DNA of 52,366 bases, the filler included, from Sphacelaria rigidula (taxonomy: Eukaryota), in NCBI GenBank assembly GCA_964200075.2. It is 4 parts of 4 records of this genome, joined end to end, with 100 filler letters (N's around TTAATTAATTAA, not from the genome) between each part and the next. Parts side by side here need not be neighbours in the genome. Positions count along the whole stretch, not along the records: positions 13,118 to 26,134 come from CAXNAA020003225.1; 3 more parts are not named here. The stretch is one strand, 5' to 3'. The first letter of the stretch is position 1. Every line of letters begins with the position of its first letter. The notes beneath the pieces are model-generated. The model was not told the DNA's origin and made no database searches. It saw only the letters and a program-made list of their open reading frames with translations. Made by a program: the position numbers and the translations under genes. This document shows positions 2,558-40,490 of this stretch, piece by piece.

Positions 2558-5500
2558 TTAACCCGCCCAGCTTCGATCTCTTCTTCTACCTCCTCCCTCT
2601 TCCTCTCCAACAACCCCAACATCATTCTCATCTACCGTCCTATCGCCAACATCATCATATCCGCCAGCATCGATATCACCCCCTTTCCTCGCGTCATCAA
2701 CGCCCTTCTGTTCGCTCAGAAACTCGACAGCCGTGAGCAACAAGCCCCCCTGCTGTGGGGTACGGCGGTTGGGCGGCCCCCTTAGCGTTCCCTGATACTG
2801 GTTCAGGAGCTGATGAGCGAATTCCGCGTCCCTCTGAGGGTTGGTTGGTTCAGGAAACGAGGACGGCGGGGTGAGGGGTATTCAAACGACAGTTGCCAAG
2901 CTGCTGCAAAAAAGACTAGTTCCCACGCTGGTCAGGTACGTTCCACAGAATAACGCCCATTTTCCAATCTAGGCAACAACACAGCAACAGTACAGTACAG
3001 TACAGCACAGCGAAGCTCAGCACAACACGTACTGTACAGCATTAAAGGCATGTACTTCCTCTGTCCTTCAAGTCTGTGCAGTTATGGACGCTTGATCGTT
3101 TGGGTATTTCGACGCTGACGATCATCCTACAGTTGGGTTTGTTAGAGAGATAACGCACAGACAAAGCTGACTCAAAACAAAAAAAGAAAAAAAATCGTCA
3201 TTACTAAAATTATGTCAAAATACACCCACGTGTTGGCCCTTTTTGGTCCACTTACACCCCAATGTTGACCGATTTCGGACGTTTTGACGTCGAGCACTAG
3301 CCATTACATGCTGAAGATTTATCAGATGGGGCGTGCGTAGGTTAACATCACGGAGATATCCAAATCAGTGGTGGTTTCGCGGTTTCCACATTTTTTTCCA
3401 CATTTTTCGCGATTTCCGGGTCTGCTATGCTTTACTGGGAAAAAAGCGAAAAATGGCCAAATTTTTACCGACCCACATTTTTGCGGTCGCGAGTCTGCAC
3501 GGGTCAAGTACCCTCGTTGCAGAAAGAGTATTATTTGTAGCTAAAAAAACGCCAACGAATGCAACCAAAAAAATCGAAAATCAAATCGGAAAACGTTAAG
3601 GGCTCATACAAACATAACTGCACAGACTTATAGGACAAAGTATGTGAGAGGATGGGTTACATCTTCTTGACTTCTGATTGTCACGCTCGGTTTCAAAATA
3701 CGGAAAAAACAGCTGTATCGTAGTCGTCCCCATATGGAAAGTTCTCGTTGGAACCAACAGTGAATCTCACAGCACAAGCACGTAAACTATTAATAACGCT
3801 TTCTCTCATAGGATTGCTATTCGACCTTCCCAACAGCAATTCCCTTCCCCCCTCCCCCCCCCTCCCCCACACCTCTAAGGCATGCACACCCTCGACCATA
3901 GTTTATACTGTCAAAACATGTACTGCGCACGGTATCAAATCCATTGCCTAATGCAATAGCCGCAATAGTCGGTACTGTACGCAGTACACTGTTGTATTCT
4001 ATTTTCCAGGGTGTGAAGGCATGCAATATCTCAGTACACCCGGCCCTCTTCCTTCAAAACAACCTCCTAGTTCAAGGGACTAGCTTGTCCATTTCTTCCC
4101 ACCCTCACCGTCCATTTCCACCACCACTACTACTACTTTTACTACTACCAACAGCGGATCAGTGCTCCTGGAGTCAACTGTTCGTCGACCTCTCGTCTTC
4201 ATTTTCGTGCAAGTATCAAGTACCACGACTTTGGGTCAGCAGTCCCCTGCATCGCGTCTACTCTCGTCAAAGACAACTTCCATTACTTCTCATAACACCA
4301 CGAAACTAGACACTCTTCAGCACAAGAAGAACATATGCATGTGCGGGAACTCGAACCCTCATTCTCCCGCACTCCCTGGTTCCAGGTGCACTCTTGATAT
4401 GAATATTGATGCTGATGACGTTGATATTAATGTTGATATGAGTGTGACAGTGAATGTACACAACCAGGGCGCGGCGGCCACAATAAAGTATGACCAATAC
4501 ACATGCATGCGTGCACACGCACGGTAGTACGTGCATATACACGTGTACAAGGGACACACCTTCGACCTCGCTGCTCGCGGTACTTGGCCTTGCCGTCCTC
4601 ATGACAACTGACCAGCGACCCCTTAGCCTTGACCCCTGCCCTAGCGCCCAACGCGTCTAGATCGGCCAGCTAGCTGCACGAGCGAAAAAGGCCGGCGCAT
4701 GGTTTACTCCTGTACAACGATAGAGAAGGAGTATCACGTGCATACACATGCAGAGAGTACGACAAACACCAAGTGAGGCACGAACCATGAAGAAAAACCG
4801 AGACGTTAAAAAAAAAAAAATGAAACAAAAACGCGCTCGAGTCAAAACATAGACACCCGCCGCTGCAAAAAGTTTCCTTACGGCCTTCATACGACACACT
4901 CCCTTTCCCAGACCGTCGCCACATTGAAAGATTGAGCGATTCCTTCCATACATTCAGCCATCCACTGTCGCACACACTACTATAATAGCGCATCCGCCGC
5001 GACTCTATCGGTGTCGCAGGATACACACACGCCCGCAAGGCACAGTGAAACAAACGGAAATTCTTCATCAAGCACACTCCAAGCAAGGAACAACACAACG
5101 GGGATCGAAACGAGCAATCTTCACTTGTCTGGCGGCTCTCCTTCAAACAAACGGCAAAAAAATCGTAAATATTGATTGATCCAAGCGTATCTGTACACAC
5201 TGAAAACACCAGGCTCTCATCCACTACTGTATATCACCACGGAAATTTATTCTCATTCATTCTCATCTCATCTCGCACATGCGTCTCCGTCGCCATCCAC
5301 GTGTGTTCCGGCCGAAACGTAACGTGAACCGTGATTTTTTTTTCTCATGAATGTAACGTACCTTGAACGTTAAATTTTCAAGTGAGAGTTTCACGTAACC
5401 TTCATGTTTTATAAAGTGCCGAACGAAACGTAAGGTGACCATTCAAATGTCCAAACGTTCAAAACACTTCATATGAAGCATCAAAAGGAAAATTTCGAAA

Positions 5501-6706
5501 AAAATGTGAACGTAACGTTAATCTCTTTTAACGTACCGAACGAAACGTGAACATAACGTGAATATGGACGTGAAACGTGTGGAGCCCTGGTGATTTTTCT
5601 TTTGCATATATTGGGGAACGGGGCTTGCTGGGGACACTCCATCGAGGTCTAGACTTTTTCCGGCCCGTTCTCGACGGCTACTTCACATGTGTGATTTGAG
5701 TACTGACTGTTGCGTTGGGTGCTCCAGACTCGAATGCATCATACAGCGCCGGCCATTTTCCGTGTGTGAACTGGGAGGGCATCGCCTGAACGCGCGAGTC
5801 ACCCGTGAAGAGGTCGGACTCGAAAACCAAGTGTACCCGGGCGAAGCATTCCAGGAAAAATAGCAAGAACAGATGATGACCTGTCTCTGGTCGGTATGGT
5901 GTCGTCAAACAGCCCCGACTCTTTTTGGGCTCGGATTAGCACAGCTAACTGTGTTTCCCGCAACCGCATAGCCAACCTGGAGTGCGCCGAGCGCCCTGAT
6001 CGGGATCATCCAGGCGGGTTTACGATTTCCGATCCAACTAACTATCCTTGGACACGAAAAACAGCCTCCTGGAGGTACATCCATTCGTTGGTGGTGGTGT
6101 GGTGTGGTGTGGTGTGGTGTGGTGTACAAATCAAAATGCACAAATAATCATGCGATTGCGCTGAAAATGGGCAAGTAGGTGAGCGAGTAGTTCGCACAGA
6201 TGAAAGAGCAGCAGTTTTGTAGCTCCTAACTCGTTGCCGTCCGAAAAAAACGGCCCGAACAAACAGTGGGAAGAAAGTATCTGGAACATGTGTGAGATGT
6301 GCACTCCCTGTAGGATCCACCTATCTCTCAGTTCTCGCTCGAGGTGTGAGGGTTAGGCTCTGAACTCAGGAGAAGCGCAGATGAAGCGTTTTCTGGGCGC
6401 CCTTGGAGTAGTTTTCCTTCTCAATCAGTGGCGAAAATATGGGCAGATCTTGTTCTGGTAAACTCAGCAAATGAATTTCAATCGAAGAGAAAACGAAAGA
6501 GACGACTGCTCGATTTCATTGATGGCCGTACGATTGTCGATTTGCCTCCGTCCTTCCAATTTCAGGTCTCAAGTATCAAGTCTCACAACCTTGAACGAGA
6601 ATCCAGGGTCGCGCTTTGCTGTCTCAAGTGGTGAGACCAGCTTGTTCTTCCTCCGAATGACAGAAGAAAACATGTCGGGTAATTGAGAAATAACAATAAC
6701 AATATC

Positions 6707-13017: not shown

Positions 13018-13117
13018 NNNNNNNNNNNNNNNNNNNNNNNNNNNNNNNNNNNNNNNNNNNNTTAATTAATTAANNNNNNNNNNNNNNNNNNNNNNNNNNN
13101 NNNNNNNNNNNNNNNNN
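13018..13117. other. Artificial contig linker (N44-TTAATTAATTAA-N44)
   Basis: 100-nt N block with a six-frame-stop core, identical at three positions. Confidence 0.97.
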
Positions 13118-13478
13118 TTACAAGGGACCTCGGGAAGTACGGGGGATTCAAAACTAGACGGGCGTGAAAATGGTTCTGCGAAGGAGAGGCGATGTTGGAT
13201 TTGCAGGAAGCAAACAACACACTTCGCGCGTGACTGTCCGAAACGACATTGTATGAGATGCGGAAAAAAGGGGCACTCTCATCAGGATTGTAATACAGGA
13301 GAAAACGAAGATACAGCGATGGCAGTAGGGTCGTCGGGTAGTACCGATTCTTCAGTATGTTCGGAAGCGGACGCAGAAGCCTTTTGAAAATTGATGGCAT
13401 GAGACCTATGCATGACTCAAATACCCCTTTGTTTTTATGTTTTGAGTGTTCGTGACCGGCACGAAGATAGCGATTCAT
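13118..13478 (-). pseudogene. Possible degenerate DNA transposase fragment (Harbinger/PIF-like N-terminal HTH region), truncated by the contig end
   Basis: Intronless peptide FESCIGLMPSIFKRLL...LYLRFLLYY...FFRISYNVVS loosely resembles the F-R-M-x-x-x-F-x-x-L / L-R-Y-L / F-R-V-S-x-S-T-V-S spacing of Harbinger transposases. Weak, by eye only. Confidence 0.2.
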
Positions 13479-15708
13479 TTACCTTGGGTTTTTCTGTCTC
13501 GATGAGTGCAGACTTACTTTGCGCGTTTGTTTGACTCGATTGATGAATGGAAAATTGTCTGCCGTTTTTGTAAGTGTGAGGAGAGCGGGGCACCGCGACT
13601 TGACTTGACTGTGGAACGGTGTCGGTACAATCGCACAGAGTGAAGTGCATGAAGAGTGTTGAGAACATGTTTTGACATGGATGCCGAGACTCAATGCTTA
13701 TGTGTAACATTGTTGCTACCCCGATGAACGCAGGACTGTGGGGCACCACACCCTTACTCGATCGGTTGAGGTGGAACCTTGTTCGTCGCCTTAGTGAGTA
13801 CAGGCACGTGGGGTACTGCTGTCTGACGAGACTAGAGGGTGATGTCGGTAAAATGTTCCGCAGAGGGGTATGCGGATGAGTGATGGTTGAGACCACAAAA
13901 TTTGAGGTGGGTTCCGAAACTCGACATCTAAGTGAAAAAGTTGTTATCCTTTCAAGAAGTGTAGGATTCGCGAGTCATCGGCTTGTTGACTGGATTGGTT
14001 GATAAGACTTCGTTGTTATGGTAGGAGCAAGGACTGAGTATAGCGCAATACTAGTAGCTTGGCCTGATCATGATAATATCGGAAGAGTGACTGTGGGCAC
14101 AAACGAAATTCCTGTGCTACAGGTCAGCAAAACGCATGTGACACATATTTGATGGCTAATAGATAGAGCTGACGTTATGAGCGAGATGCGGTTCATGTGC
14201 ACAGCATGATAAAAGAAGAGTGCATTGTATCACCCATATGGGAGCTGGTCGTTGCTCGGTTGGCTGGCCAGGCGAATTCCATACAGGTTTACACATGTTG
14301 GCACGGCATGTCAAAGGCAAAGTGTACTGTTTCATGCAACCAGGATGGTAGCGGCCGAACTGCCGTTTGATCCATGCATTGTATGTGAAGGAGAAGTGAA
14401 GAGTTGAAATAATAGTGCTGGATCCACGTGAAATATGTGGGTGTGCGTTCGCGACTGCCGTAACGCGACACCACAGTACGGTGCGTGGTGAGAGTATGTT
14501 TATCGGTTGGTGATTGACGCGCCTGAGTAACATGGATATTAATACTTTTCCTTTCTGTCATCCCACTGCCAATTTCCCTCGGGTCTGCACGATATGTGAG
14601 ACGCTGAGCCTCCAAAAACTATCTTTGTCCGACACAGGTGCTGTCTGTACGGCTGACACGAGCACGAGGTGACGGTTGGTTTTGGAGGGCGGTGACCGAC
14701 CAGGATCAAGATCAACCCCTCGCTGCAAATCTCCCCGCTACGGGGGAAGGATGATGAATGCAGCACTCCTTCCCCGTGGCCTAGAAGCGGAGGGGGAAGA
14801 CTTTGATTAGCAAGAATTGGGGGGGCTGATGCTGCTCGTGTGTTTTGTCTGGAGGCGTTGAGCTGCTTTGCTCCGCCGGTCACCGAGGGGTAATAAGGGG
14901 TTAAGTAGATGTAGTGAGTGTCTCGTTTGGTTTGATGACGTAGGCACTACTGTAGTATGGATTGCTGAATTTGAATTTTGAAATTTGATTCTTGTACTAT
15001 AGGCAGCTGACTGACTGTGAAGTGGATTTTGCAACATGTGATCCGAGTTTCGAAAGTTGTCAACTGCACTGTGTTGTCTGGGTTCATATATGTTACCTTG
15101 GAGTTTGGTCTCGCGTGCGTAATGCAGGTTACTCGAATGCTAAGTACGACCACTCACGCTATTGTAAGGAGCATGGGCTAGTACAGTTGAGGAATTTGAC
15201 TTGCGTTTCGCTTGGGTTGAACATCAGGAGCTACAGTGTAGTGAAACACACAGCTCATCCATCCCTGTTTTTTTGTCTTGGTGTGAAAAGAAATGTACCG
15301 ATGTAATTGATTCTTTGCTGGTCCCATAGTCGTTGAAAGCAGTGACGAGTTGCGGGATTTACGGTGGTTTTACAGTTGCTGATGAAATTCATTTTTTTAG
15401 AAGATATAACTGGTGAATGCGCCGTGAGCGGAAGAGTACTTTTCCCGGTGGGTAGTTCTGTTCACTGAGCATGGTCCTTGAACCTTACATTTGACACCGC
15501 AGTCAATGGGGGGGTGTTCGTAGGATAGCCTGTGGTGGTCAGTAAGATAACACCTAGTCAGGGTAAGGTACAACAGTCTAGTGATATACCTGTTTGAGTT
15601 CCGGGTACTACGCGGGATGACTTTATATTGTGATGTTCGTGACCGGACATACGTGAGTGGTGCTCGTCGCATGTTGGGACCTTGATCCCAACTGCGATCA
15701 CTCCCCGA

Positions 15709-15963
15709 GTGATGCTGCGATAGGGTCTGCACTTTTGGGGGCCAAAACCGGCCTGATTCAGGGGTTCCTAAAATTAGGAACTACACAAGAATATGGGTAA
15801 GTATATCCCCGTTTGCAAATTCATTCAGGATATCCCTAGCAGATTGGAAGAAAAACCCTGGCATACTCTCACCTATTTCGAAAGTTGTGTTTTGGATGAG
15901 GTAAAGGGTTCCTAACAATTCTACTCTCAGGCCGTAAAAGTGCTGACCCTATCGCAGCATCAC
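15709..15963. mobile_element. MITE (~255 bp) with ~28-bp TIRs; second partial copy at 26235-26404
   Basis: gtgatgctgcgatagggtctgcactttt pairs with aaaagtgctgaccctatcgcagcatcac. The interior (atccccgtttgca...ggatatccc...gatgag.taaaggg...aacaattcta) is homologous to 26241-26370. Confidence 0.8.
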
Positions 15964-16860
15964 CCCCCCTTCCTTCGCTTTCCATCAACAAAGCTTTATA
16001 TACATTTCTACCTCATCTTGATCGGCAATCAGCCTTGTCCATTGATCGACTATCGCAGTCGTGTCCATTGATCGACTATCTGAGTCGAGTCTGTACCCCA
16101 TCCTCTCACGGGGTCACGAAGCTACGAACACTCAAAAACGCCGCCCATACACCATATTTTAAGGTAACATGAAAGATGATGCTGTGTACTTCTCGACTTT
16201 GTTCTCAAAATTGTGTATTCTTGAAGCGCAGTATATATCTTGTCAACCAAACTCGGTACTCAAAAATGTGTTTTTTTCACACGTCGGACAGATGAGGTCA
16301 TGACAGATCCGGATCGGCTCATTTGGGGCTTGCCCGCGTTCTCAGGATCTGCCCTTAAGCATATCCACCACAACCCGCTGATTCGGGCTGCGGGTAGGCA
16401 CCGAGGCGGGGCACATTCCTTCCCTACCCGGGTAATCTCGGAATCTTACCCAAAAAAGCTTCCCTGTAGAGCTCCCAGCTCGACAGGAAGTGACACCAAA
16501 ATAAAGACAACTATAGCTCAGTAGTAAAAACCCCGAAAGCCTGTCCGTACCTCAGAATCGCACAACCAATCCTGTTTCTGCTTCGCCCCGCCCCAAGGAG
16601 TCATGGACGCTGTATCTCTATACAAATCTCTATATATAGGCATACATATATATATATGAGGAGCTCCTTCTGATGTCGGATCGGAGGATATACAGGAGGA
16701 TTTTCGCCCTTGCCCGATCCGATAGACTATAAAGCCACGAACTTGGAAAATAACAACAACGAGCGGCGCTCGATTTGAATGTTCTCCCCCTTGCTCCACC
16801 TCCATGACAAAAAAAATTCCACACCCCAACATATGCCAACAGAGATAACGCCCAACCCAC

Positions 16861-17620
16861 ACGCCCATCAATCACAACGCCCCTAAACATTAACATTCTG
16901 CTCACGTATTGTTGTTGGCTCTCGGTCTGACCAACACGAAGGCCAAAAGCAGCACATTGCCTTTGGCGCACCCCCTCTGTTACGGGGCGCCAAAACATGC
17001 AGCACACACATTGTTTTTGGACTTCGGCCCCATCAACAAGCACGGCAACAACAGACCACCCATCACAGGGCCCCAAAACCCTTCGCACGCATGATTGTTG
17101 TTGGTTCTTAGTCTCGCTCATCGAATAGGGAATATACAGTACATCGTTTTCCCCGCACCCTTAATAGTCACAGGGTTCCAAAAATATCAAGCGATATTCT
17201 GTTTTTGGCTCATGGCCTACCAATAAACCGGGTAATTCCGGACTATCCATCACAGGGCCCCGGAACATTTCAGCCCACAATGTGTTTGTGGGCATCCAGC
17301 CACTCCAACGCAAATACGGCAAAGCCAGTACTTCGTTTTTGCCACACCCTCTTCATCACAGGATCCCAGAACAGTCACACCCGTCGGTGCCTCTCAGCTT
17401 CGTCAATAAATCAAGTATCACCAACAGTAAGTACATTCATCTTTGCTGCGCCTTCTCTATCGTAGGACCCGACAACATTCACCATACTTTTCGATGGCTC
17501 TCAGCCTCGCCAACAAATAGGGTAATAGTCACCGGTATGCTGATTTTTGCCACACCCTCTCTATCACAGGGCTCCACGCTATTCACTTGTTGGCTCTCCG
17601 TTCCACAAGGAACAGGGCAA
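16861..17620. repeat. Degenerate ~80-108-bp minisatellite
   Basis: An atcacagggcccc-like anchor recurs at about 16871, 16979, 17062, 17168, 17249, 17355, 17459 and 17563, usually followed by a ttgttggctctc-like motif. Confidence 0.65.
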
Positions 17621-17817
17621 AAACGGTACATTCTCAACGGCTGTGGGTTCTCACACCAATATTCCAGCATGTACTACATTGGTAATGTCTCGTCATCTCT
17701 TTCATATAAGGCCCGAAACATCCAAAGATAAAGGGTTTGTGTGCATTATTTTTCCTCCTCTCTCGGTCTTACAAAATGGCAGTCTCGACTCTCTGAGATG
17801 AGCTATGCGCCGCGTGG

Positions 17818-20800
17818 CTAAAACGTTGCATCGCACAATGACGCTGCTACCTCCTTCTCCCGTGCCCATACAGGGTCACCGGAGATTTCATCCTCACCGC
17901 TACGCGTTACCCTAGCGGTCTCACGCGTCGCACACAGCCGAAACTCCGCCCCGCAAGCTGGGCTGACCCCCCCCCACACCTCCGCATCCCCACTTTCCTC
18001 CTCATCGAGAGACAGGCACACGCCACTGGGGGTAGCCCAGATAAGCATGGTTGCCCCCGTTTCAGGGTCTTGGCACGTGGGCCGCCGTAATACCCCTTTT
18101 GATCCCGCCGCCCGCGTGGAAAACGAGGAACGAGTCGCACTTGTCCTGCGCGGCGGAGTCGCGCGGCGGGTGCCGAAGAGCTCGTGTCGAAGGCCGTCCA
18201 ACGCAAGCAAGAAAACGATAGTCACCACCACCTTTTGCAGCCAGCTTCCCGCTGATCGGGGCGACGCGCGGTTACCGTCCACGTCGCTTCGATCAATGTC
18301 TGAATCGGCTTGCGCCCCACTGCTATCAGCGACGTCGTCGGAAACCACCCCACTGGCGGCTCCTGTCCTACCTCGTGTTTCTGTCGGCGATCGGTCATCG
18401 CCGCCAACTTCCTGGTATCGCCGGGCTGCATCGTGCAGGGTGCGCTCCACCGTACGTAGAGTCGGTGGTGACAACTGTCTCTCCAGTTCGACCGGCGCCC
18501 CCCTCAGGATCGGAAGGAAGGTGCGCATGCTGTGCTTTGGCATGACATGCGGCCCGTCACGGCGGTATCCGACCGGCGCGCCTGGAGAATCAGGGTCGTC
18601 GGCACTCACATCTACACCCACGCCCGCAACGGCAACCTCATTCTCGCTGCCCACCGCATTCTGTCGAACTACCAGGGCGTCCGGTGCTCTACCGACTCTG
18701 TCTCCGACCATGCTGTCGCTGTTAGAACGCGGCCGCCCTCCGCCGGCGCTCGCCACTGGTGCTCCGTCATGTATCACGGCGGGGGCAGAGTTTGCACCCG
18801 ACCAGTCGTGCCGGCCGACAGGGGTTGAAGGCGTGCTCCATCCTCCGGTCTCGGCGCCGCTCCTCCCTACCACGTTCGACGAAGCAGCTGCACTGCCGCT
18901 CCTGGCTAGCCCAATACCCACGCCATCACCACTCGACGGTGTACCGGGAGCTGGAGGAAGTGGCGAAGCTGCAGCTGGTGATGGGTGAGGGGACAGAGTG
19001 GAAGAGGCAATGGCGGCGGCAAATTCCGGGCTCGACATTCGCAGGCCTCTGTTCCGGTACAAGTCTGCCTGTGTGATCGGGGTCGGGTGGGTGCGTACCT
19101 CCGCCGCCATCGCCCTGCTCGTGCGGTCGGTGTTGCCGCTCCAAACACTGCCCCTGGCACTGCTATCGCTGCGGGAACGATGCGCACCGGCAACAGCATC
19201 ACCCGCCGTGCTCACTGCTGCCGCTGCCGCTGTCGATGTCGCTTGCCCCCCGAGGGTGCCCGATGCGAGAGCAGCCCTACCCCGCTCTAAGGTGAAGCTG
19301 TAGCTGTCACTAACATCACCATCTGGGCTAACGATGCTCGCAGGGTGACTGACCGCGAACCGCGGATCGTTCCTCTCGCCCGATATGTGTTCCATCTCGA
19401 GCGCGTGGTAAACGTCCGCAGTGAGCTCGGCGGTCATATCCATAGCTTCCGACGAGTTCGCGAGTTCCAGTAATCGTGCCGCGGTGTTCGCCGCGTCCTT
19501 ACATAGAATCACAACAAACGAACGATTCGTACGCATTGCATTGTTTATTGGATAAACCGCGTGTCACATGGCCGCTGAAAGTGATAACATGACACGGTAT
19601 TAGATGGCCTAGCCAACAACAGAGGTAGTTGTGCACCTGATTGACCTGAAATGGATCAAAAGAATACTGAACAGTGAGGTAATCGTACCGCGCAGACAGC
19701 GAGCGTCGCTTCACAGGCTGACAGTCCAGGGACATCGGGGGGTTTCCAGGGTAGCGGGGGGTGGTTTTCGACAGGGTCTGGTGGAAAGCTGTTCGCAGAA
19801 CAGCCGGAGAGCTGACCAAGTCAGCCATGTGTGTTTGGAAGATTCCCGAGGAAAATTGTAAGCCAGGAACGAGGCCCGAAAGGAGCGGAATGACCATTTT
19901 GACCAATCACGGCAATCAAAATGGCCACTTTGTTCCCCAATAGGTGGACTACAGGTGGACTCCTTCGCTATCTTGCCGTATTTTTCATCTTGGTCAGGAC
20001 AATTTAACCATAGTGTATATGAGCACATAGAACGCTTTGCCAGCATAGCTTCACACTGCACTGTTGTTGTGGAACACTAAGCAGAAGCATCAGCAGCATG
20101 CAGTAGGTGGTGCTCAGTGGAGAGCGATGGCTCGCTGAGTGCTTCTTGCCGTTGTATCCAGCGGAGACATACAGCACCCATACTGACTCTGAACGCAACA
20201 GAATGTAGGGACAAACCCGGGCAGGGGTCCTCCGGTAGTTCTTCTACATATATGCCCCTTGGGGGTGCTGTGACGAAAATACGCCGTTATGTTGAGTTTG
20301 AAGTGATGATACGGATAACGACTGGGGGCACGGGGATTCTAAAGGGTTCTGGATAATGACCGGGGACACGGAGATGGTGCCGGCGGGTGCAGAAAAGCTG
20401 GTGCCTTGGAAGGTCACTCCTGATAATATGAGATGTTGTACAGGCTGACAACTAAAACTGAGGCCAGTGAGACTGGGGAGTCCGCCAACAGCAGTGATCC
20501 ACCAGTCCTTCTTCTGGCTGGCGTCACACACAGCTAGACCCCTGGGGGTCAGTGAAAGTGCGGCAATCAATCAATCCATCCATCAATCATGCCCAATATC
20601 CAGATGATCATTTCAAAAGGCGTTTGTGATGCGAGAAAAAAACTGTCCCGAACCCCAAATGTGGCATAGTCCATCCCAGTCCACCTGCGGGGGGAACGCT
20701 GTCGAAGGCTGAACGCATTGTCCAGCGTCAGTACTACCGTACGAAGTATATTGTCATCTTTTGTCGTCAACGTCGTCTGTCCAGCGATGTCCTCTCACAC

Positions 20801-21123
20801 ATACCTGCAGGAAAAGCTTGGTGTGCTGAGTCGCCATCGCATCCACGGCTCTGGCCATAACCACAGCGCCCTGCTGCAGGACGTTCTTGAACTCTGGCGT
20901 ATTCATGGCCTCTGCCACCTTCACCAGCCCGGTAGCAGAGTCCATGACAAACTGCCTCCCGGCAGGCGACGAAACCGCCATCGCCAACGAACTACTGGCA
21001 GCCGACGCCGACCGCAACACCTCGGCCCCTTCGGCGGTTTTCCAGATCTTCGCCACGTTAATGGCCCCGTTCTTGTAGATTCGACCGATATCTCTCGCCC
21101 GCTGCGGAGTCCATTTCACGAAC
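17818..21123 (-). CDS. Hypothetical protein, last two exons: helical N-terminal part, long Ser/Ala/Gly/Pro-rich region and one C-proximal transmembrane segment; 5' exons unresolved
   Basis: Exon 21123-20805 (RFVKWTPQRARDIGRIY...TKLFLQ, GT donor) joins in phase 0 to exon 19497-17818 (560 codons including the TAG stop). Hydrophobic segment WLQKVVVTIVFLLALDGL. Confidence 0.8.
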
Positions 21124-22889
21124 CTATTGTTCATGTGCATTAACATTGAATTATGATAGATACGTCAGAGCTGGTAAACGCTTATCGTCCGAAATACACA
21201 TATCTGCACATGTTCACGCCGATTCTTGAAGTGAGACTCTGAAACCTTGCACACATATATACGTGGAACATGACGAAAAATCGATGGATGCGGTCATTCG
21301 AAGTTTTTTTTCTCGCCAGTTATCGGGGGTTCAAGGCCTTGGAGGGTTTTGGGGGATCTGTGGTGGCTGTAGACTCTAGCCACCATTGTTACCTAAGGTT
21401 GGGGACATTCTGTAGGTGGAGTTGCGGGTCTGATTGCCGGACTCTGCGATGGGTGACCTCCATGACGAGAGAGCCTAGTTTTGCTACTCTGGTGGAGAGA
21501 GGCTATGGTCGTGTTCTCCTGTATATGCTAAAGGTTGATACATAAATAAACGTTTATTGTGGACCTGCCTGCAATCAGGACAAGGTTACAGTGCTGCTCC
21601 AGAGGCTTCTTCCCAGTCCCGGGCTCCAGAGACTTCAAGACTTCAAGCAGTTATACAAACGGCAGTCTTCGTTAACCAGAAGTACCCTTGCACCTCGTGT
21701 GCAAACATCATACATCACGGAGTCCAACAATCATACTCTCAGACCCGTTATCCATCAACCAGACTATAAACGCCTGCTATGCACTCTCTCCACTGCAGTC
21801 ATGTACCGAATCAAGGTAACAATGTTGCCTGGAGTCTACAGATCACATGCTCTCCTGGGAACCCCAATAACGAAAATATCGGAAGATCTCATCCATGATA
21901 GATTGCCCTGTGCCCAGGGCGCTTCCAATTTCAATTTATTGCGGTGTTCGTGACGTTGCGGTCTCGAATTTCGGCGGTGAAACCGGAGTGGTCTCAGCTG
22001 GGCCCTTCTACTCTAAAATGAAGGTGCGGCACGCACCCGGGGTGTGGTGATGTGTCGTTGCACGGAAGCGTAAAAGTGCATTGAAGCATACATCATGTTC
22101 GGGTTATCGCCGTCGCCCTATTTTCGCAAGGGCCCGCAGCAAGCCGGTGCTGAGCCGCGAGCCGTTTCCTGGCAAATTCCCGCCAGGTCGCCCCGCACTA
22201 TTATAGTCCCAGCCACTACCATGCGTGTTTTCAAGTACACGTACACGACTTGCTTCCCGGTGTGCCATAGACTAAAATTTGCAAACTGCTGTTTCTCGGG
22301 CAGACAAGAGACAGCGTCAAGCGTCAAGCAGCTGCACGCTGGGTCGAGAGGCCCCACATCGGGAAATGACGGCACCACCACCCCCCAGGTCGCCCAAACC
22401 TCTTTCTAGGAGGGGAGGGGGGGAACCCCCGGGTACCCTATTTGAGGAGAGGGGGTACCCCCCTGATCGATGGATCTATGTACGGTACATAAAATATGCT
22501 GATTGCTGCTGTGTTCGACACTGCGTACCAACTGTAGCGTGACGCCTTCGGCGGTACTACCTGTTCACTGCACAGCGGCAGGGTGAAGGGTGACAAAGCA
22601 CACTGCAGGACGTCACACCCTTAGCCTATCCCTGCCCTGCATTGATTTTGCGTTGGCCTATGCAGTTCGCCACATCATGAACGCAGCCGCTTGTATCTTG
22701 GCCAATGTGTACGCGGGATATCACCCCTCGCTACGCGCTATATCGCTACACCACATTTTGTGAAGCTGTCCGTGTTGCAGCTACAGCGTGCGTTTGCGCC
22801 AGGTGGCGCACGCGGGAGTGAAAGGCCGCCTCGGCCGCTGTAATGGCTGCCTGTATCTTGGGCGAAGCTGTATGGTAACACAGCCGCGA

Positions 22890-22956
22890 CTGGTGCGCCC
22901 ACATATACCGAAAGGTGGAGACCGGCGTCCAGAATAGATGGGACGACAACATACAC
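22890..22956 (+). repeat. 3' fragment of the tRNA-derived SINE
   Basis: Reverse complement of the gtcccatctattctggacg...tgtgggcgcaccag motif also seen at 40491-40566, 49935-49998 and 51825-51900. Confidence 0.7.
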
Positions 22957-23524
22957 AATACACTGTGCGCAATACACTTTCAACATCGTGTTCGTACTGA
23001 CCATGATAAACTCTTTGTCTACGGTTGGGTTCATCTCCACATATAATCCAGAGTCTGGTATATCTCCACGTGTAAATGTATGTAATATTACTGTGATGTT
23101 GTGAAAAAAGTCCGCAACATCTGGGCGAACTGCAGGTGAGGCAATCGCCGAAATATTCACCTGCAAACTCTGCTCCAGTGCACTATAAGTTGATATCGCT
23201 AGAAATACGCTACCATAACCGCCTTGCCGGCTGCCAGACTGTCAGGACGTCGGGTCCGCTAGCATTGCCTCTGTTTGTACGGGAATGTTGCCCCCTTGGC
23301 GGGTACGTGCGGAAGGGTCAGTGGCAGAACGCAGTGGTCGCGTCAAGCAGGTGCACGCTGGGCGTTCTCACTCAAGACTTCGATTTGAAGGACGATACTA
23401 GGTAGGCAGCAGCAACTGCTGTGTGTCCAGGAGCCCCTTGGAGCAGGATGCGTTTGGTTTCTGTTTGACAACGTTTTCCCCGGAAAACAGAAATTAATAA
23501 GGGTGTAAGAGTGGAAAAATCTAG

Positions 23525-23590
23525 CAAAAAAATGTCGCAAAAAAATGTCGCAAAAAAATGGAGTCGCAAAAATGGAGTCGCAAAAATCAT
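23525..23590. repeat. Short tandem aaaaaatg(gag)tcgc repeat
   Basis: Four imperfect units read directly from the sequence. Confidence 0.7.
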
Positions 23591-24927
23591 GTTGCAAAAA
23601 ACCGCCTAGACGAATTTTCACCCGCAGCAAAAACCAAATTCACTGTGTAGAATTGGAAAACGTTCCGCAATGTCCCGTTGTGTATGTGTGCAAATTGCAA
23701 GAGTCTGACTCCAGGAATAGGCGAAAACAAATGGGCTTTTTTGCGATGAAGTAAATTTTATGCAAACTCCTATCTACTCGATTCGAATACGGAAACGTAC
23801 TTTCACGTCAAAACGAGAAAAACTGTATCGGGTTTCGAGTTACGAAACGGAATTTGCCGCAAATGTTCCTTGAACTACTCCAGGACGCATGTACTTCATA
23901 TTTTCTTGCTTTGAGGCATTCTGCACCGGCCCTAGGAAGCGGTACAGAGTTGAGGAACGCTGGAAAAATATTTTTCTTCCATATATATTTTCCACATAAA
24001 ACACCAAAACCTACCGAACTGCCAAGTGTGAGAGCGATCTGAGGTTTTTCATGACAGAAACAAGGGAAACCGTAAGGAGACTTCATGAGTCTTTTGTTCA
24101 TATCAGTGAAAATCCAACGAAGCCGAAACCCCGTGTCACCGACATACAACGATTTGGGGTATAATTCGATCCCATCGTAACCGTCTTCACATATGTTGTT
24201 TTCCGTTAAGCTCCCAGGCTAATGGCGGTTACTATGACTTGATGAACGTAGACATTGAGTAGTGATCGGATGGGGAATTTGTATTTATGTTTCCGAGCAG
24301 TTTGAAGGCCGCTGATTGGTCAAGGTACCTTTTCACCGTCGGCGCCGCCGCGACGGCCCTCCACAAAAAGCCAGCTATAGCAACGTCCTCAGCTGTCCAT
24401 GGTGATCAGTATGACGCCATGTGTGTGTGACCAATGGGTAGGTATTGCGGACGTCATTTACTGGTGACGCAATTTTGGGTTATAAGAGTGAACCAGCTCG
24501 TACCGCAATCGTTTACGCCTAGCTCGTCCTATATTGTAAGTTTTATACCTCCCAGTATCATCATATCAACCTTTGCATTCACGTCTTGATTCCTTCAAAT
24601 TGCACAGTCCTTCATGTATATGCTATAGAGGCATGTCGCTGCTTCCCCGTGGTCTAACTGACGTAGCTGAAGATAGCTAGGGCGGAAGATTGAGGGTTTG
24701 ATTCACGGCGGATAACTTTCACCCCTCTTGTCTGAGACGTGTCTGATTTCCGTCGTTGAAACCGGAGAATGTGAAAAGCAAAAACTCTTCATCTGACGAG
24801 AGGTGACGCGTCAAGAATGGTTAACCAGACGAGGATGGTGACCACCGGTGGCAACTGACTTACTGCAGTAGAGATACCGAGCAGCGCGTTAAACTGATCT
24901 CATCATGCTACATTCTTGAGCCGTCAT

Positions 24928-25657
24928 TTTAGGCGAATCAGGCGCGCTACAATGAGTTATGCTGACCAGGCAAACCCCATGCCATGATACGTATCACTTT
25001 CAGCGGTCTTGTGACGCCCTACTCTCGGAATGTTGTACACACGTACGAAATCGTGCATTTGCTGTGATTCTGTCTCAGGGCACGCCAAGCGCCGCAGCAC
25101 AGCTGCTAAAACTGGCGGACTCCTCGGAATCCACTGACGCAGCCGCCGACTTAAACGCGGACGTTTGCCACGCCCTCGAGATGTAGCACCTCGCTGGCGG
25201 CGGGAACGATCCGCGATATGCGATTAGTACGCCCGTGACCGCGCCGGTAGACAACCATGGCACCGTTCGGCGACGGCCACAAGCGAGCATCGGGATTGCG
25301 GCTGCCGTTGAAGAGGGTCGTGGTTGTCTATCGGCGTGGTCACGGGCGCATTGATCGGGAATCGCGGATCGATCCTGCTGCCAGCGAGGTGCTCTATTCT
25401 TAGGGCATGGCACACGTTCGAGGCGGATTCGGCGGCCATGTCCGTGGGTTCGGAGGAGTCGGCCAATTGGGTCAGTCGTGCCACAGCGTTCGCCGCGTCC
25501 TGAGATGACATCAAAACAAAAGAACGACCCGAACGTGTATAAGACCAATTCGGGAGTCAGGAGTCACATGACCGCGGAAAGTCATGACGTGGCATGGCAT
25601 AGCACGGGATGGCCTGGGCAAAACAAGTCATAGTTGTGGATTGTTGAGTGGCCTAAA
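24928..25657. pseudogene. Inverted duplication of the intron/exon junction (~19330-19650) of the neighbouring gene
   Basis: The + arm encodes GTPSAAAQLLKLADSSESTDAAADLNADVCHALEM* and the - arm encodes DAANAVARLTQLADSSEPTDMAAESASNVCHALRIEH. The gene encodes DAANTAARLLELANSSEAMDMTAELTADVYHALEMEH. Upstream intron sequence (atcactttcagcgg..gtgac) is also retained. In-frame TAG at 25184-25186. Confidence 0.9.
25187..25391 (+). ncRNA. Candidate pre-miRNA/hairpin RNA (96-bp stem, 13-nt loop)
   Basis: Manual ungapped pairing of 25187-25282 with 25296-25391 gives 75 Watson-Crick and 12 G:U pairs over 96 positions on the + strand. No expression evidence available. Confidence 0.5.
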
Positions 25658-25821
25658 GCACGGGAGTGGTCGATAGATCGGCGATACCTCAAGTGTGTAC
25701 AGGCGAAGTGATGAGCCGATCGCTTGAGATCACGGGCTCATCCCGAAAAAGAGGGGGGTAAAAAGTGTGACGAGCAAGAAAATTAAAATAGCATGCAACA
25801 AAAAAGTGAAAAACCGAGTGG

Positions 25822-25865
25822 TGTTGTTGTTGTTGTTGTTGTTGCTGCTGCTGCTGTTGTTGTTG
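25822..25865. repeat. (TGT/TGC)n microsatellite
   Basis: Direct reading. Source of the spurious polyQ/polyL ORFs. Confidence 0.9.
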
Positions 25866-26134
25866 GTTATTTCTGAGCATTTACACAAGTATTCTTGTTT
25901 CAGTCAGTCGTTCAATATCTTCAAACCTTGTTTAGTTATATGTTCCGTAGAGATTGTTGACTTGGCAACCCAGCACACGTGAAAAGATATATGAAAAAGG
26001 TGTAAATTGTCACCGCTAGCCTGCAACAATGGTAAAAAATGGTTGCCCCCTATAAACCTCTCCTCGTTGAAAAAACGTACGAAGAGCTCATGAAGGGGGG
26101 GGGGGGTGTACTCATGATCATGCTTGCCATAGTC

Positions 26135-26234
26135 NNNNNNNNNNNNNNNNNNNNNNNNNNNNNNNNNNNNNNNNNNNNTTAATTAATTAANNNNNNNNNN
26201 NNNNNNNNNNNNNNNNNNNNNNNNNNNNNNNNNN
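26135..26234. other. Artificial contig linker
   Basis: Same 100-nt N/TTAATTAATTAA block. Confidence 0.97.
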
Positions 26235-39250: not shown

Positions 39251-39350
39251 NNNNNNNNNNNNNNNNNNNNNNNNNNNNNNNNNNNNNNNNNNNNTTAATT
39301 AATTAANNNNNNNNNNNNNNNNNNNNNNNNNNNNNNNNNNNNNNNNNNNN
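39251..39350. other. Artificial contig linker
   Basis: Same 100-nt block, preceded by a poly-C run at 39181-39229. Confidence 0.97.
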
Positions 39351-39909
39351 AGTGGCGGGCGGCCCGTCGGCCGCCGCATCCTGTTGGAAGCTGGCTCGTT
39401 ACCGCGACACATACTGCTTGCTACATCAGATGTACACCACCCAATGCGCACCCTGCACCTGAAAACAGACTAGATGAAACTTTCGGTCTTCGTCATAACC
39501 CCGCGGTTACATACGCGGATTTTCAGCAACATGCCGCTGTTTCGTTTAGTCGCCAGACACGCCATTCCTGACCAGCCTATTGGTCGTTCTGGAGGCCCGA
39601 TCCCAAAAGGGTTAACGTGACTGAAATAACCCGGGGAAGATGTTGTTTCGTCCCATCCCTTGAGTACGCGCTGGTATTGAGGCCTAACGTCAGAGCCTGT
39701 TGAATAGAAATGACGATGCCCCTGAACATGTGAAATATAACTGTAACACGTACATCCTAGTTGCTGATTTGGAACCACCCTTGTCCCTCTTCCCAACGAT
39801 CATACGAGCATATTTCCTCCCTGAAACACTTCACCCAGGGGGTATTATTTGACGTATTAGTCGTTTACCGGCGAAATGCAGGATGAGAAGTTTCACTATT
39901 CACGAGGGT

Positions 39910-40454
39910 GAGGCCGCTTCTTTTAGACTGAAAAATCCCTGAGAACTTCCCGGTTGAACCTTTCATCACGAAATATTGGCGGAATACGGACCTTGGCTGA
40001 TTTGGCCTCCTCGAAAGGATTTGCTATATGTTTCACGAGGATTCCAGCGCTCTTGTCCGATCTTTCGTACTCCCAGTTTTACTCTTGGCCGGATTCTAGA
40101 TTATTTCAGTCGCCGCGAAAATCGTCCAGTTGTCAGGAAAAGTACGTATTTTTCTCCGACAACTCAAGAGTTTTTAGGTGACGGAAAAAGTGCAGAATCC
40201 GGCCAAGAGTAAAACGTACTTTTCAGACAAATCAAGTTTTTTCAGGTGACGGAAAAAGTGCAGAATCCGACCATGAGCAGAACCACGAGTACGAAAGATC
40301 GGACAAGCGCGCTGAAATCACCGTGAAAAATATAGGAAATCTTTCCGAGGAGGCCGAATCCGCCAAAGCCCGTATTCCGCCGATAATTCGTGATGAAAGG
40401 TTGAAAAGGGCAGTCCTCAGGGAGAATGTTTTTCAGTCTAGAAGAAGCGGCCTA
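39910..40454. mobile_element. Foldback MITE with ~190-bp inverted arms, hAT-like
   Basis: aggccgcttcttttagactgaaaaa pairs with tttttcagtctagaagaagcggcct, and pairing continues inward (ttgtccgatctttcgtactc / gagtacgaaagatcggacaa). Near-identical 8-bp flanks acgagggt (39902-39909) and acgagggg (40455-40462). Internal direct repeat aggtgacggaaaaagtgcagaatccg twice. Confidence 0.8.
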
Positions 40455-40490
40455 ACGAGGGGAACCACCTTTTGTTACGTGCCGATATAG

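What the first reader, a model, noticed from the sequence alone, without database searches (positions are those of the whole stretch)
24928..25657. Target-derived hairpin: inverted duplication of a neighbouring gene's exon with a pre-miRNA-like inner stem
Seen: two diverged copies of the intron/last-exon junction of the 17818-21123 gene sit head-to-head ~5.5 kb from it, on the same contig. The arms share derived changes absent from the gene, and one arm has an in-frame stop. The inner 96-bp stem (25187-25282 / 25296-25391, 13-nt loop) is gap-free. By manual count, 12 of its 16 transition differences form G:U pairs in a + strand transcript (87/96 positions paired), whereas the adjacent outer coding-derived part shows no such bias. 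In a + transcript the 3' arm is antisense to the gene's mRNA (gaatcgcggatcgatcct vs gaaccgcggatcgttcct at ~19357). Known: inverted duplication of a target gene is an established route to new miRNA/hpRNA genes in plants, and brown algal miRNAs come from long hairpins. Inference: selection has kept a small-RNA hairpin that could regulate its parent gene or its paralogues.
Basis: partly seen in the sequence, partly recalled or inferred. Interest (0 to 1): 0.78.

Follow-up and report, generated by a model that had tools for sequence, protein, structure and literature searches.

The report
Gene-derived hairpin in a brown alga
An old back-to-front double copy of part of a nearby gene forms a long hairpin in a brown seaweed; its inner stem shows modest signs of being kept as folded RNA, so it may be a young small-RNA gene, but there is little sign that it still controls the gene it came from.

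Summary
Window 24928-25657 (Sphacelaria rigidula, by the NCBI name of the adjacent protein) is a single-copy inverted duplication of the intron/last-exon junction of a conserved, uncharacterised ochrophyte gene. Inner 96 bp: 75 Watson-Crick, 12 G:U, 4 A-C, 5 transversions; outer 267 columns show no G:U bias. A test that gene conversion alone cannot pass (wobble versus pair-breaking changes, cut and strand free) gives p 0.002-0.07, and the stem ranks first of 48 inverted repeats in a 600-kb genome sample, so selection on + strand RNA pairing is plausible, not proven. Corrections: hairpins are common here (51 in 600 kb); 'gap-free' extends to 232 bp; the copies converge; the best-paired core has no complementarity to the gene; none of 30 5'-U + strand 21-mers scores 4 or better against the mRNA. 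RNA contigs show the gene is spliced to an exon 1 absent from this contig, so the hairpin may sit in its first intron. Left-arm RNA is present at low depth, strand unknown. No small-RNA data. Best reading: a transitional miRNA/hpRNA-like locus (0.45) versus neutral decay (0.38); parent targeting about 0.13.

The parts
24928..25078 (+). left arm, copy of the 3' end of the gene's last intron, with its AG acceptor at 25077-25078
25079..25186 (+). left arm, copy of the conserved first 36 codons of the last exon; ends in an in-frame TAG (25184-25186)
25187..25282 (+). 5' side of the inner stem (on a + transcript); copy of the start of the gene's variable linker; begins at the His codon that ends the protein's conserved core
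25283..25295 (.). 13-nt spacer / loop
25296..25391 (-). 3' side of the inner stem (on a + transcript); second copy in coding sense on the - strand
25229..25262 (+). longest fully paired block on the + fold (partner about 25316-25349); no usable complementarity to the parent mRNA
25392..25499 (-). right arm, copy of the conserved first 36 codons; frame stays open from 25499 to 25224
25500..25657 (-). right arm, intron copy with AG acceptor
24602..25272 (.). stretch covered by low-depth contigs without differences in 4 of 4 laid runs (extent differs by run); strand unknown
17818..19497 (-). last exon of the parent gene (559 codons plus stop); source region 19299-19693 incl. intron end
20805..21123 (-). 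second exon of the parent gene; spliced to 19497 in 4 of 4 runs and to an upstream exon not on this contig
19357..19390 (-). mRNA stretch with the best residual complementarity to inner-stem 21-mers (scores 3.5-5)
23760..24500 (.). one half of an old, high-copy 1.5-kb element with short terminal inverted repeats; ends about 430 bp before the hairpin; not part of it

Best explanation
A roughly 360-bp piece of the gene (end of last intron plus start of last exon) was copied and duplicated in inverted orientation long ago (shown: arms about 30% apart, each about 33% from the gene). The outer arms have since decayed without strand bias (shown). The innermost about 205 nt is transcribed on the + strand and folds into a long pre-miRNA-sized stem in which pair-breaking changes were purged while G:U-forming ones were tolerated (inferred from the substitution spectrum). 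Dicer would cut it into 21-nt RNAs loaded on the single Argonaute (inferred from Ectocarpus). It works like a plant target-derived MIR/hpRNA locus at a late, drifting stage: the stem has moved away from the parent sequence, so it probably no longer silences the parent strongly; any effect on the parent would more likely come from minor siRNAs of the outer arms or the stem base.
For: Inner 96 vs outer 267 columns: G:U 12 vs 20, A-C 4 vs 22, transversions 5 vs 37, gaps 0 vs 9; transitions are not depleted inside while pair-breaking changes are, which plain homogenisation does not predict. Permutation with cut and strand free: p 0.0025 (gap columns kept), 0.017 (dropped), 0.070 (exon-derived part only); paired-fraction change point p 0.043. 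Wobble share of inner substitutions 0.57, highest of 48 inverted repeats with at least 10 substitutions (47 from 600 kb of the same genome; pooled share 0.25). + fold -166.2 vs - fold -135.7 kcal/mol. The inner stem covers the protein's variable linker, so coding constraint cannot explain its higher arm-to-arm identity. Single copy, not a transposon. Contigs from 4 of 4 laid runs cover the left arm. Foldback length 205 nt is near the brown algal means of 170 and 183 nt (PMC5381526).
Against: G:U bias alone p 0.077; WC-only gradient p 0.18; fold asymmetry p 0.08 two-sided. Inverted repeats are abundant: 51 non-overlapping in 600 kb, so chance extremes exist genome-wide, and the locus was picked for this pattern. 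Next-ranked controls reach 0.55 and 0.53 when their gap columns are ignored. No covariation data from relatives. Left-arm RNA may be pre-mRNA or DNA carry-over: intron 2 is covered at similar depth. If the hairpin lies in the gene's first intron, the default transcribed strand is -, where the bias is the wrong way; 90-94% of intragenic brown algal miRNAs are on the host strand. Two surveys found no brown algal pre-miRNA similar to a protein-coding gene.
Confidence: 0.45

Rival explanations
1. Neutral relic: a decaying inverted duplication of a gene fragment. The better inner stem comes from a later arm-to-arm conversion near the centre plus chance; any RNA is read-through or intronic and has no function.
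For: Outer arms evolve at intron-like rates; every single test except the combined spectrum test is at p 0.04-0.18; exon-only spectrum test p 0.07; hairpins occur about once per 12 kb in this genome; no sign that complementarity to the parent is being kept; shared indels against the gene inside the stem fit conversion or inheritance.
Against: Conversion lowers all classes of difference alike, yet transitions are 16 of 96 inside and 42 of 267 outside while transversions plus gaps fall from 46 of 267 to 5 of 96; top rank among 48 repeats.
Confidence: 0.38
2. Intronic self-regulating hairpin on the - strand: the repeat lies in the parent's first intron, is co-transcribed with it, and yields a 3p 21-mer (25216-25196, 5' U) that pairs at positions 2-14 with the gene's own last exon and with the paralogue.
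For: Expressed mRNA has an exon 1 that is not in 21126-26134, so if the contig is assembled correctly the hairpin is intronic; 75% of brown algal miRNAs are intragenic, mostly intronic and on the host strand; this 21-mer is the only one of 57 5'-U candidates scoring 4 or better (3.5) and scores the same on both gene copies; the - fold still pairs 79 of 96.
Against: The wobble bias points to +; on - the inner stem is no better paired than the outer arms (p 0.41-0.59); a 13-nt identical run is expected from residual homology; the link across the repeat-rich 22557-24500 stretch is unverified and the paralogue's first intron has no hairpin.
Confidence: 0.11
3. Remnants of two convergent coding paralogues (or the right arm is a live alternative last exon), brought tail to tail; the hairpin is incidental.
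For: Arms keep 18 of 36 identical residues in the outer exon, above neutral simulation (mean 14; p 0.04-0.07); dN/dS 0.39; both arms keep AG acceptors; the right arm frame is open for 91 codons.
Against: Non-synonymous divergence between arms (0.28) equals intron divergence (42 of 150); third positions not significantly enriched (16 of 37, p 0.14); no partner second exon for either arm in the assembly; left arm has a stop; the variable linker, not the conserved core, is the better-kept part; listed contigs run unspliced through both acceptors.
Confidence: 0.06

Closest known systems
[quoted passage not shown] 2004 model, seen only as cited in 10.1101/2024.07.25.605110 and PMC4513859; example Aha-miR217)
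   Same: Both arms are homologous to one protein-coding gene nearby; homology extends beyond the tight stem; arms have diverged from each other and from the parent.
   Different: Brown alga, an independent miRNA lineage; arms are about 33% from the parent, so at most a marginal target site is left; no small-RNA evidence; even in A. halleri only 6 of 310 young precursors resemble coding sequence.
Ectocarpus 'weak candidate' or transitional miRNA loci (65 loci in extensive palindromes; PMC4513859)
   Same: Long palindrome of several hundred bases with a tighter inner stem of pre-miRNA size.
   Different: Those loci were defined by mapped small RNAs, which are lacking here; the passages read do not derive them from genes.
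Bona fide brown algal miRNA genes (Ectocarpus 64, Saccharina japonica 117; PMC4513859, PMC5381526)
   Same: Foldback length (205 vs 170-183 nt); possibly intragenic; not conserved in sequence.
   Different: Neither set showed similarity to protein-coding genes; this hairpin is wholly gene-derived and sits in an extended palindrome.
MITE / foldback transposon hairpins
   Same: Long inverted repeat; such repeats are very common in this genome (35 of 52 examined have copies on other sampled contigs, one of them this locus through its paralogous gene).
   Different: Single copy; arms are exon/intron sequence; flanking repeats on the two sides are unrelated.

Membership tests
miRNA gene (criteria of PMC5381526) | At least 15 nt of a 21-mer pair with the opposite arm | tested here: met
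   0-4 mismatches over 19 nt for all 30 5'-U windows on +, 1-6 for 27 on -
miRNA gene (criteria of PMC5381526) | At least 8 nt between miRNA and miRNA* | tested here: met
   13-nt spacer between the arms
miRNA gene (criteria of PMC5381526) | Reads for both miRNA and miRNA*, 2-nt 3' overhangs, precise 5' end | not testable with these tools
   Only assembled contigs of long-RNA or unlabelled runs were available
miRNA gene (criteria of PMC5381526) | Not part of an extended hairpin that yields more abundant other small RNAs | tested here: inconclusive
   The stem is part of a 730-nt hairpin; read abundance unknown
miRNA gene (criteria of PMC5381526) | One transcript spanning both arms | tested here: inconclusive
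   Contigs cover the left arm in 4 of 4 runs; none listed bridges the loop; contigs give no strand and holes prove nothing
Target-derived inverted-duplication hairpin | Both arms homologous to one protein-coding gene | tested here: met
   anchored continuation to the loop p 0.006 (left) and 0.04 (right), last 50 nt alone not significant
Target-derived inverted-duplication hairpin | Retains a target site in the progenitor mRNA | tested here: inconclusive
   Inner stem: best + score 4.0 (5' C) or 4.5 (5' U), best - score 3.5; outer arms 2.5-3; all 5'-U inner candidates have 4 or more non-WC positions, above the three mismatches allowed in PMC12867755
Target-derived inverted-duplication hairpin | Cleavage or repression of the progenitor | not testable with these tools
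   No degradome; the gene is expressed and spliced in 4 of 4 runs, which neither supports nor excludes tuning
MITE / foldback transposon | Dispersed copies sharing the inverted repeat | tested here: not met
   Only the locus itself and the two gene copies match (these searches score only the best candidates)
Known Rfam RNA family | Covariance-model match | tested here: not met
   0 matches at gathering score in the window, 0 at E up to 1 in 24900-25700

The most novel reading that the evidence does not exclude
A brown algal small-RNA gene born by inverted duplication of a protein-coding exon, possibly lodged in the first intron of its own parent, that still yields an Argonaute-loaded 21-mer against the parent and its recent paralogue: the plant route to new miRNAs operating in a lineage where two surveys found none, and a miRNA-target pair predictable from ancestry in a group with no validated targets in the papers read.
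Probability: 0.13. Interest if true: 0.72.

Novelty: new member of a known kind. Interest (0 to 1): 0.42.

Why it matters
Brown algae evolved miRNAs independently, and how their miRNA genes arise and what they target is open: surveys in Ectocarpus and Saccharina found no precursor derived from a protein-coding gene, and an Argonaute mutant study found no consistent effect of miRNAs on predicted target mRNAs. A gene-derived hairpin under structural selection would show the plant route also works here and would offer a testable pair. As it stands it is a good candidate for one small-RNA sequencing look-up, not a demonstrated system; I found no paper on small RNAs of this genus in the library.

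Tried and rejected
Shuffle z-scores (-16.9 and -14.3) were not used: any inverted repeat beats shuffles. No RNA holder was listed as RNA on record; three laid runs are 'RNA?' guesses and one is unlabelled, though all four hold the spliced junction. I laid 4 of the 11 listed runs and no DNA run. Parts without cover (right arm covered only by one contig of X6, 25473-25646; 23894-24449 covered only in X5) prove nothing; contigs of two studies ending at 25272 and 25265 are at most a weak hint of an RNA end or cut near the loop, with tables 7 and 8 truncated, and were not counted for or against. No relative's locus could be compared: the genome has no relatives in the genome tool, the metagenome scan gave one 1261-bp contig with exon 2 only, and a protein search with the start of the last exon returned only the window's own protein. 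Pack-transposon capture rejected: left and right flanking repeats share no match above 11-16 nt. A closer donor for the inner stem was sought and not found (one E 0.43 hit not followed). Parent protein function not found: no Pfam family at the curated cut-off for 24 proteins scanned; Atlas hits below its bars. The bacterial promoter/terminator scan does not apply to this eukaryote and was ignored. Earlier scan notes: none returned. A contig join placing exon 1 was sought at the ends of C3225 and C2303 and not found; C3225 ends in a repeat.

Full report
Setting. The window is four unrelated contigs joined by N spacers; the finding is on the second, window 13118-26134, contig C3225 of a 244-Mb, 27,214-contig assembly. 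The adjacent gene's protein is 100% identical to an NCBI entry named for Sphacelaria rigidula on a 13,017-base contig, so this is a brown alga.

Observation. The inverted repeat is real: one ungapped 232-bp diagonal, arms 25051-25282 and 25296-25527, 13 nt apart, extending with gaps to 24928-25657. Over the outer 267 columns there are 179 WC, 20 G:U, 22 A-C, 37 transversions and 9 gap columns. Both arms are copies of the last intron's 3' end and the start of the last exon of the - strand gene; in coding sense they point at each other. The left arm has a stop at 25184-25186; the right arm's frame is open for 91 codons. Homology continues, with indels, towards the loop (anchored alignment p 0.006 left, 0.04 right; the last 50 nt alone p 0.11 and 0.50). 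The repeat has no other copy among the candidates scored and no Rfam match.

The parent gene. It belongs to an uncharacterised family with named members in Ectocarpus fasciculatus, Phaeothamnion, Tribonema and Vaucheria and no Pfam family at cut-off. Its conserved core ends 37 codons into the last exon, followed by a variable linker. The inner stem begins exactly at the last codon of that core, so the better-kept part of the hairpin is the part least constrained as protein. A paralogue on contig C2303 is 88-92% identical over 6.3 kb including introns, with both frames intact (dN/dS 0.21 and 0.66), and carries a first exon that is found once in the assembly. The window copy is expressed: contigs of 4 of 4 laid runs join 19496 to 20804 across the intron with at most 3 differences, and run on at 21125 into other sequence; the 30 letters shown for X5 equal the end of the C2303 first exon. 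No such exon lies in 21126-26134. So either this copy's exon 1 is beyond the contig end, which puts the hairpin inside the gene's first intron, or the assembly has mixed the flanks of the two copies. I could not decide this.

Age and history. Arms differ from each other by 28% in the intron part and 34% in the outer exon part, and from the gene by about 32-35%: the copy and the inversion are close in time and much older than the paralogue split. At 46 sites both arms differ from both gene copies; not all are derived in the arms, since at one residue the arms agree with 3 of 4 named outgroups. A slight excess of identical residues between the outer arms (18 of 36, neutral mean 14, p 0.04-0.07) is not matched by slower non-synonymous change, so I give two decayed paralogues little weight.

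Is the inner stem under selection? Single measures are borderline: G:U 12 of 16, p 0.077 two-sided; WC identity inner vs outer p 0.076; fold asymmetry -30.5 kcal/mol, p 0.027 one-sided and 0.08 two-sided. The more telling comparison is the spectrum. Conversion between arms would lower all differences alike, but transitions stay at 16 of 96 inside and 42 of 267 outside while transversions plus gaps fall from 46 of 267 to 5 of 96. Shuffling classes among the differing positions, with cut point and strand free, gives p 0.0025 with gap columns (which are not independent), 0.017 without, and 0.070 for the exon-derived part alone. As an empirical control I took 600 kb from 40 contigs chosen by number: 51 non-overlapping inverted repeats with arms of 80 columns or more. 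Of 48 repeats with at least 10 substitutions in their innermost 96 columns or fewer (47 controls and this one; 4 controls dropped for fewer), this one has the highest wobble share, 0.57 against a pooled 0.25; the next are 0.55 and 0.53, each with 7-10 gap columns. It is also the longest. The same control shows that long hairpins are commonplace here, about one per 12 kb, so hairpin folding as such says nothing. Most brown algae lack or nearly lack DNA methylation (10.1101/2024.02.19.579948, passages), so a CpG effect is an unlikely cause of the bias (inference).

Is it transcribed? Contigs without differences cover the left arm and its flank in 4 of 4 runs (X5 24602-25272, X6 24682-24954 and 25013-25163, X7 24763-25265, X8 24923-25166) at depth 2-6; intron 2 is covered at similar depth, so pre-mRNA or DNA cannot be excluded, and contigs give no strand. 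No small-RNA data were reachable.

Does it target the parent? Little supports this. The gene-like inner part is 36-37 of 57 identical to the gene, no better than the outer parts. With a plant-style score (recalled: mismatch 1, G:U 0.5, doubled at 2-13, usual cut-off about 4), 0 of 30 5'-U 21-mers of the + stem reach 4 (best 4.5); the seven with mismatch-free duplexes score 8.5-11; on the - strand 1 of 27 does (25216-25196, 3.5, positions 2-14 paired). The best sites overall, 2.5-3, come from the outer arms and mostly fit the C2303 copy. About 90% of RISC-bound 21-mers in Ectocarpus start with U, and miRNA changes had no consistent effect on predicted target mRNAs (PMC12867755, passages and section 10).

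Comparison with what is known. The architecture is that of plant MIR genes formed by inverted duplication of target sequence, a route that is rare even among young Arabidopsis halleri loci (10.1101/2024.07.25.605110, passages). In brown algae, BLAST of pre-miRNAs found no similarity to protein-coding genes in Ectocarpus (PMC4513859, passages) or Saccharina (PMC5381526, parts 2 and 3 of 6); foldbacks average 170-183 nt and three quarters lie in genes. Ectocarpus also has 65 weak or transitional candidates in long palindromes, the class this locus would most likely join. A review's passages add nothing on inverted duplication (PMC12026948). Seven library searches (listings seen) showed no report of a gene-derived hairpin in a brown alga; supplements listing 295 newer putative loci and the 65 weak ones were not read and could hold such cases. 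It works like a target-derived hairpin in origin; membership of the miRNA class is untested on its defining read-based features.

Verdict. Shown: gene-derived, single-copy, old inverted duplication with an unusually wobble-rich inner stem, next to or inside an expressed parent gene. Inferred: selection for + strand RNA structure and small-RNA production (0.45), against neutral decay with conversion (0.38), an intronic - strand self-targeting hairpin (0.11) and paralogue remnants (0.06). Regulation of the parent, by either strand, about 0.13. Interest 0.42.

Noticed in passing
window 13018-13117, 26135-26234, 39251-39350: The window is four contigs of near-equal length joined by N spacers; features on different pieces are not neighbours.
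   Followed up: yes
window 16139-22556 and L007:3277-9612 (G000:C2303): 6.3-kb duplication at 88-92% identity with both reading frames intact; only one first exon in the assembly, yet RNA joins a matching first exon to the window copy. Missing contig, shared first exon or swapped flanks.
   Followed up: partly
L015 (G000:C41:25944-26084): Isolated 141-bp fragment of the gene's second exon, 85% identical at protein level, without the rest of the gene: a further fragment duplication of this gene.
   Followed up: partly
window 39908-40456: Second long inverted repeat (248 columns, 79% paired WC, 7 G:U vs 13 A-C) with nested internal repeats, next to a dispersed 70-bp repeat; looks like a foldback/MITE element.
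   Followed up: partly
window 23760-24500; full copies L103:783-2267, L104:1902-3427: Half of an abundant 1.5-kb non-autonomous element with about 45-bp terminal inverted repeats and an internal 280-bp palindrome.
   Followed up: partly
window 22782-23059: Summed contig depth 9,000-18,000 in all four runs over a short dispersed repeat (also at 40490, 49935, 51818): a very high-copy element common in transcripts.
   Followed up: no
L051:6774-7288 (G000:C140): 257-column, 90% inverted repeat with a third local copy at 5427-5649 and none on other sampled contigs; may be a younger local inverted duplication of the same sort.
   Followed up: no
L105:3860-4701 and 48-478 (G000:C469): 842-bp palindrome at 91% and 431-bp palindrome at 85% on one contig.
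   Followed up: no
window 17818-21123: The parent protein family (conserved N-terminal core, low-complexity linker, short conserved motif, hydrophobic C-terminal stretch) is widespread in ochrophytes with weaker hits beyond, and has no Pfam model.
   Followed up: partly
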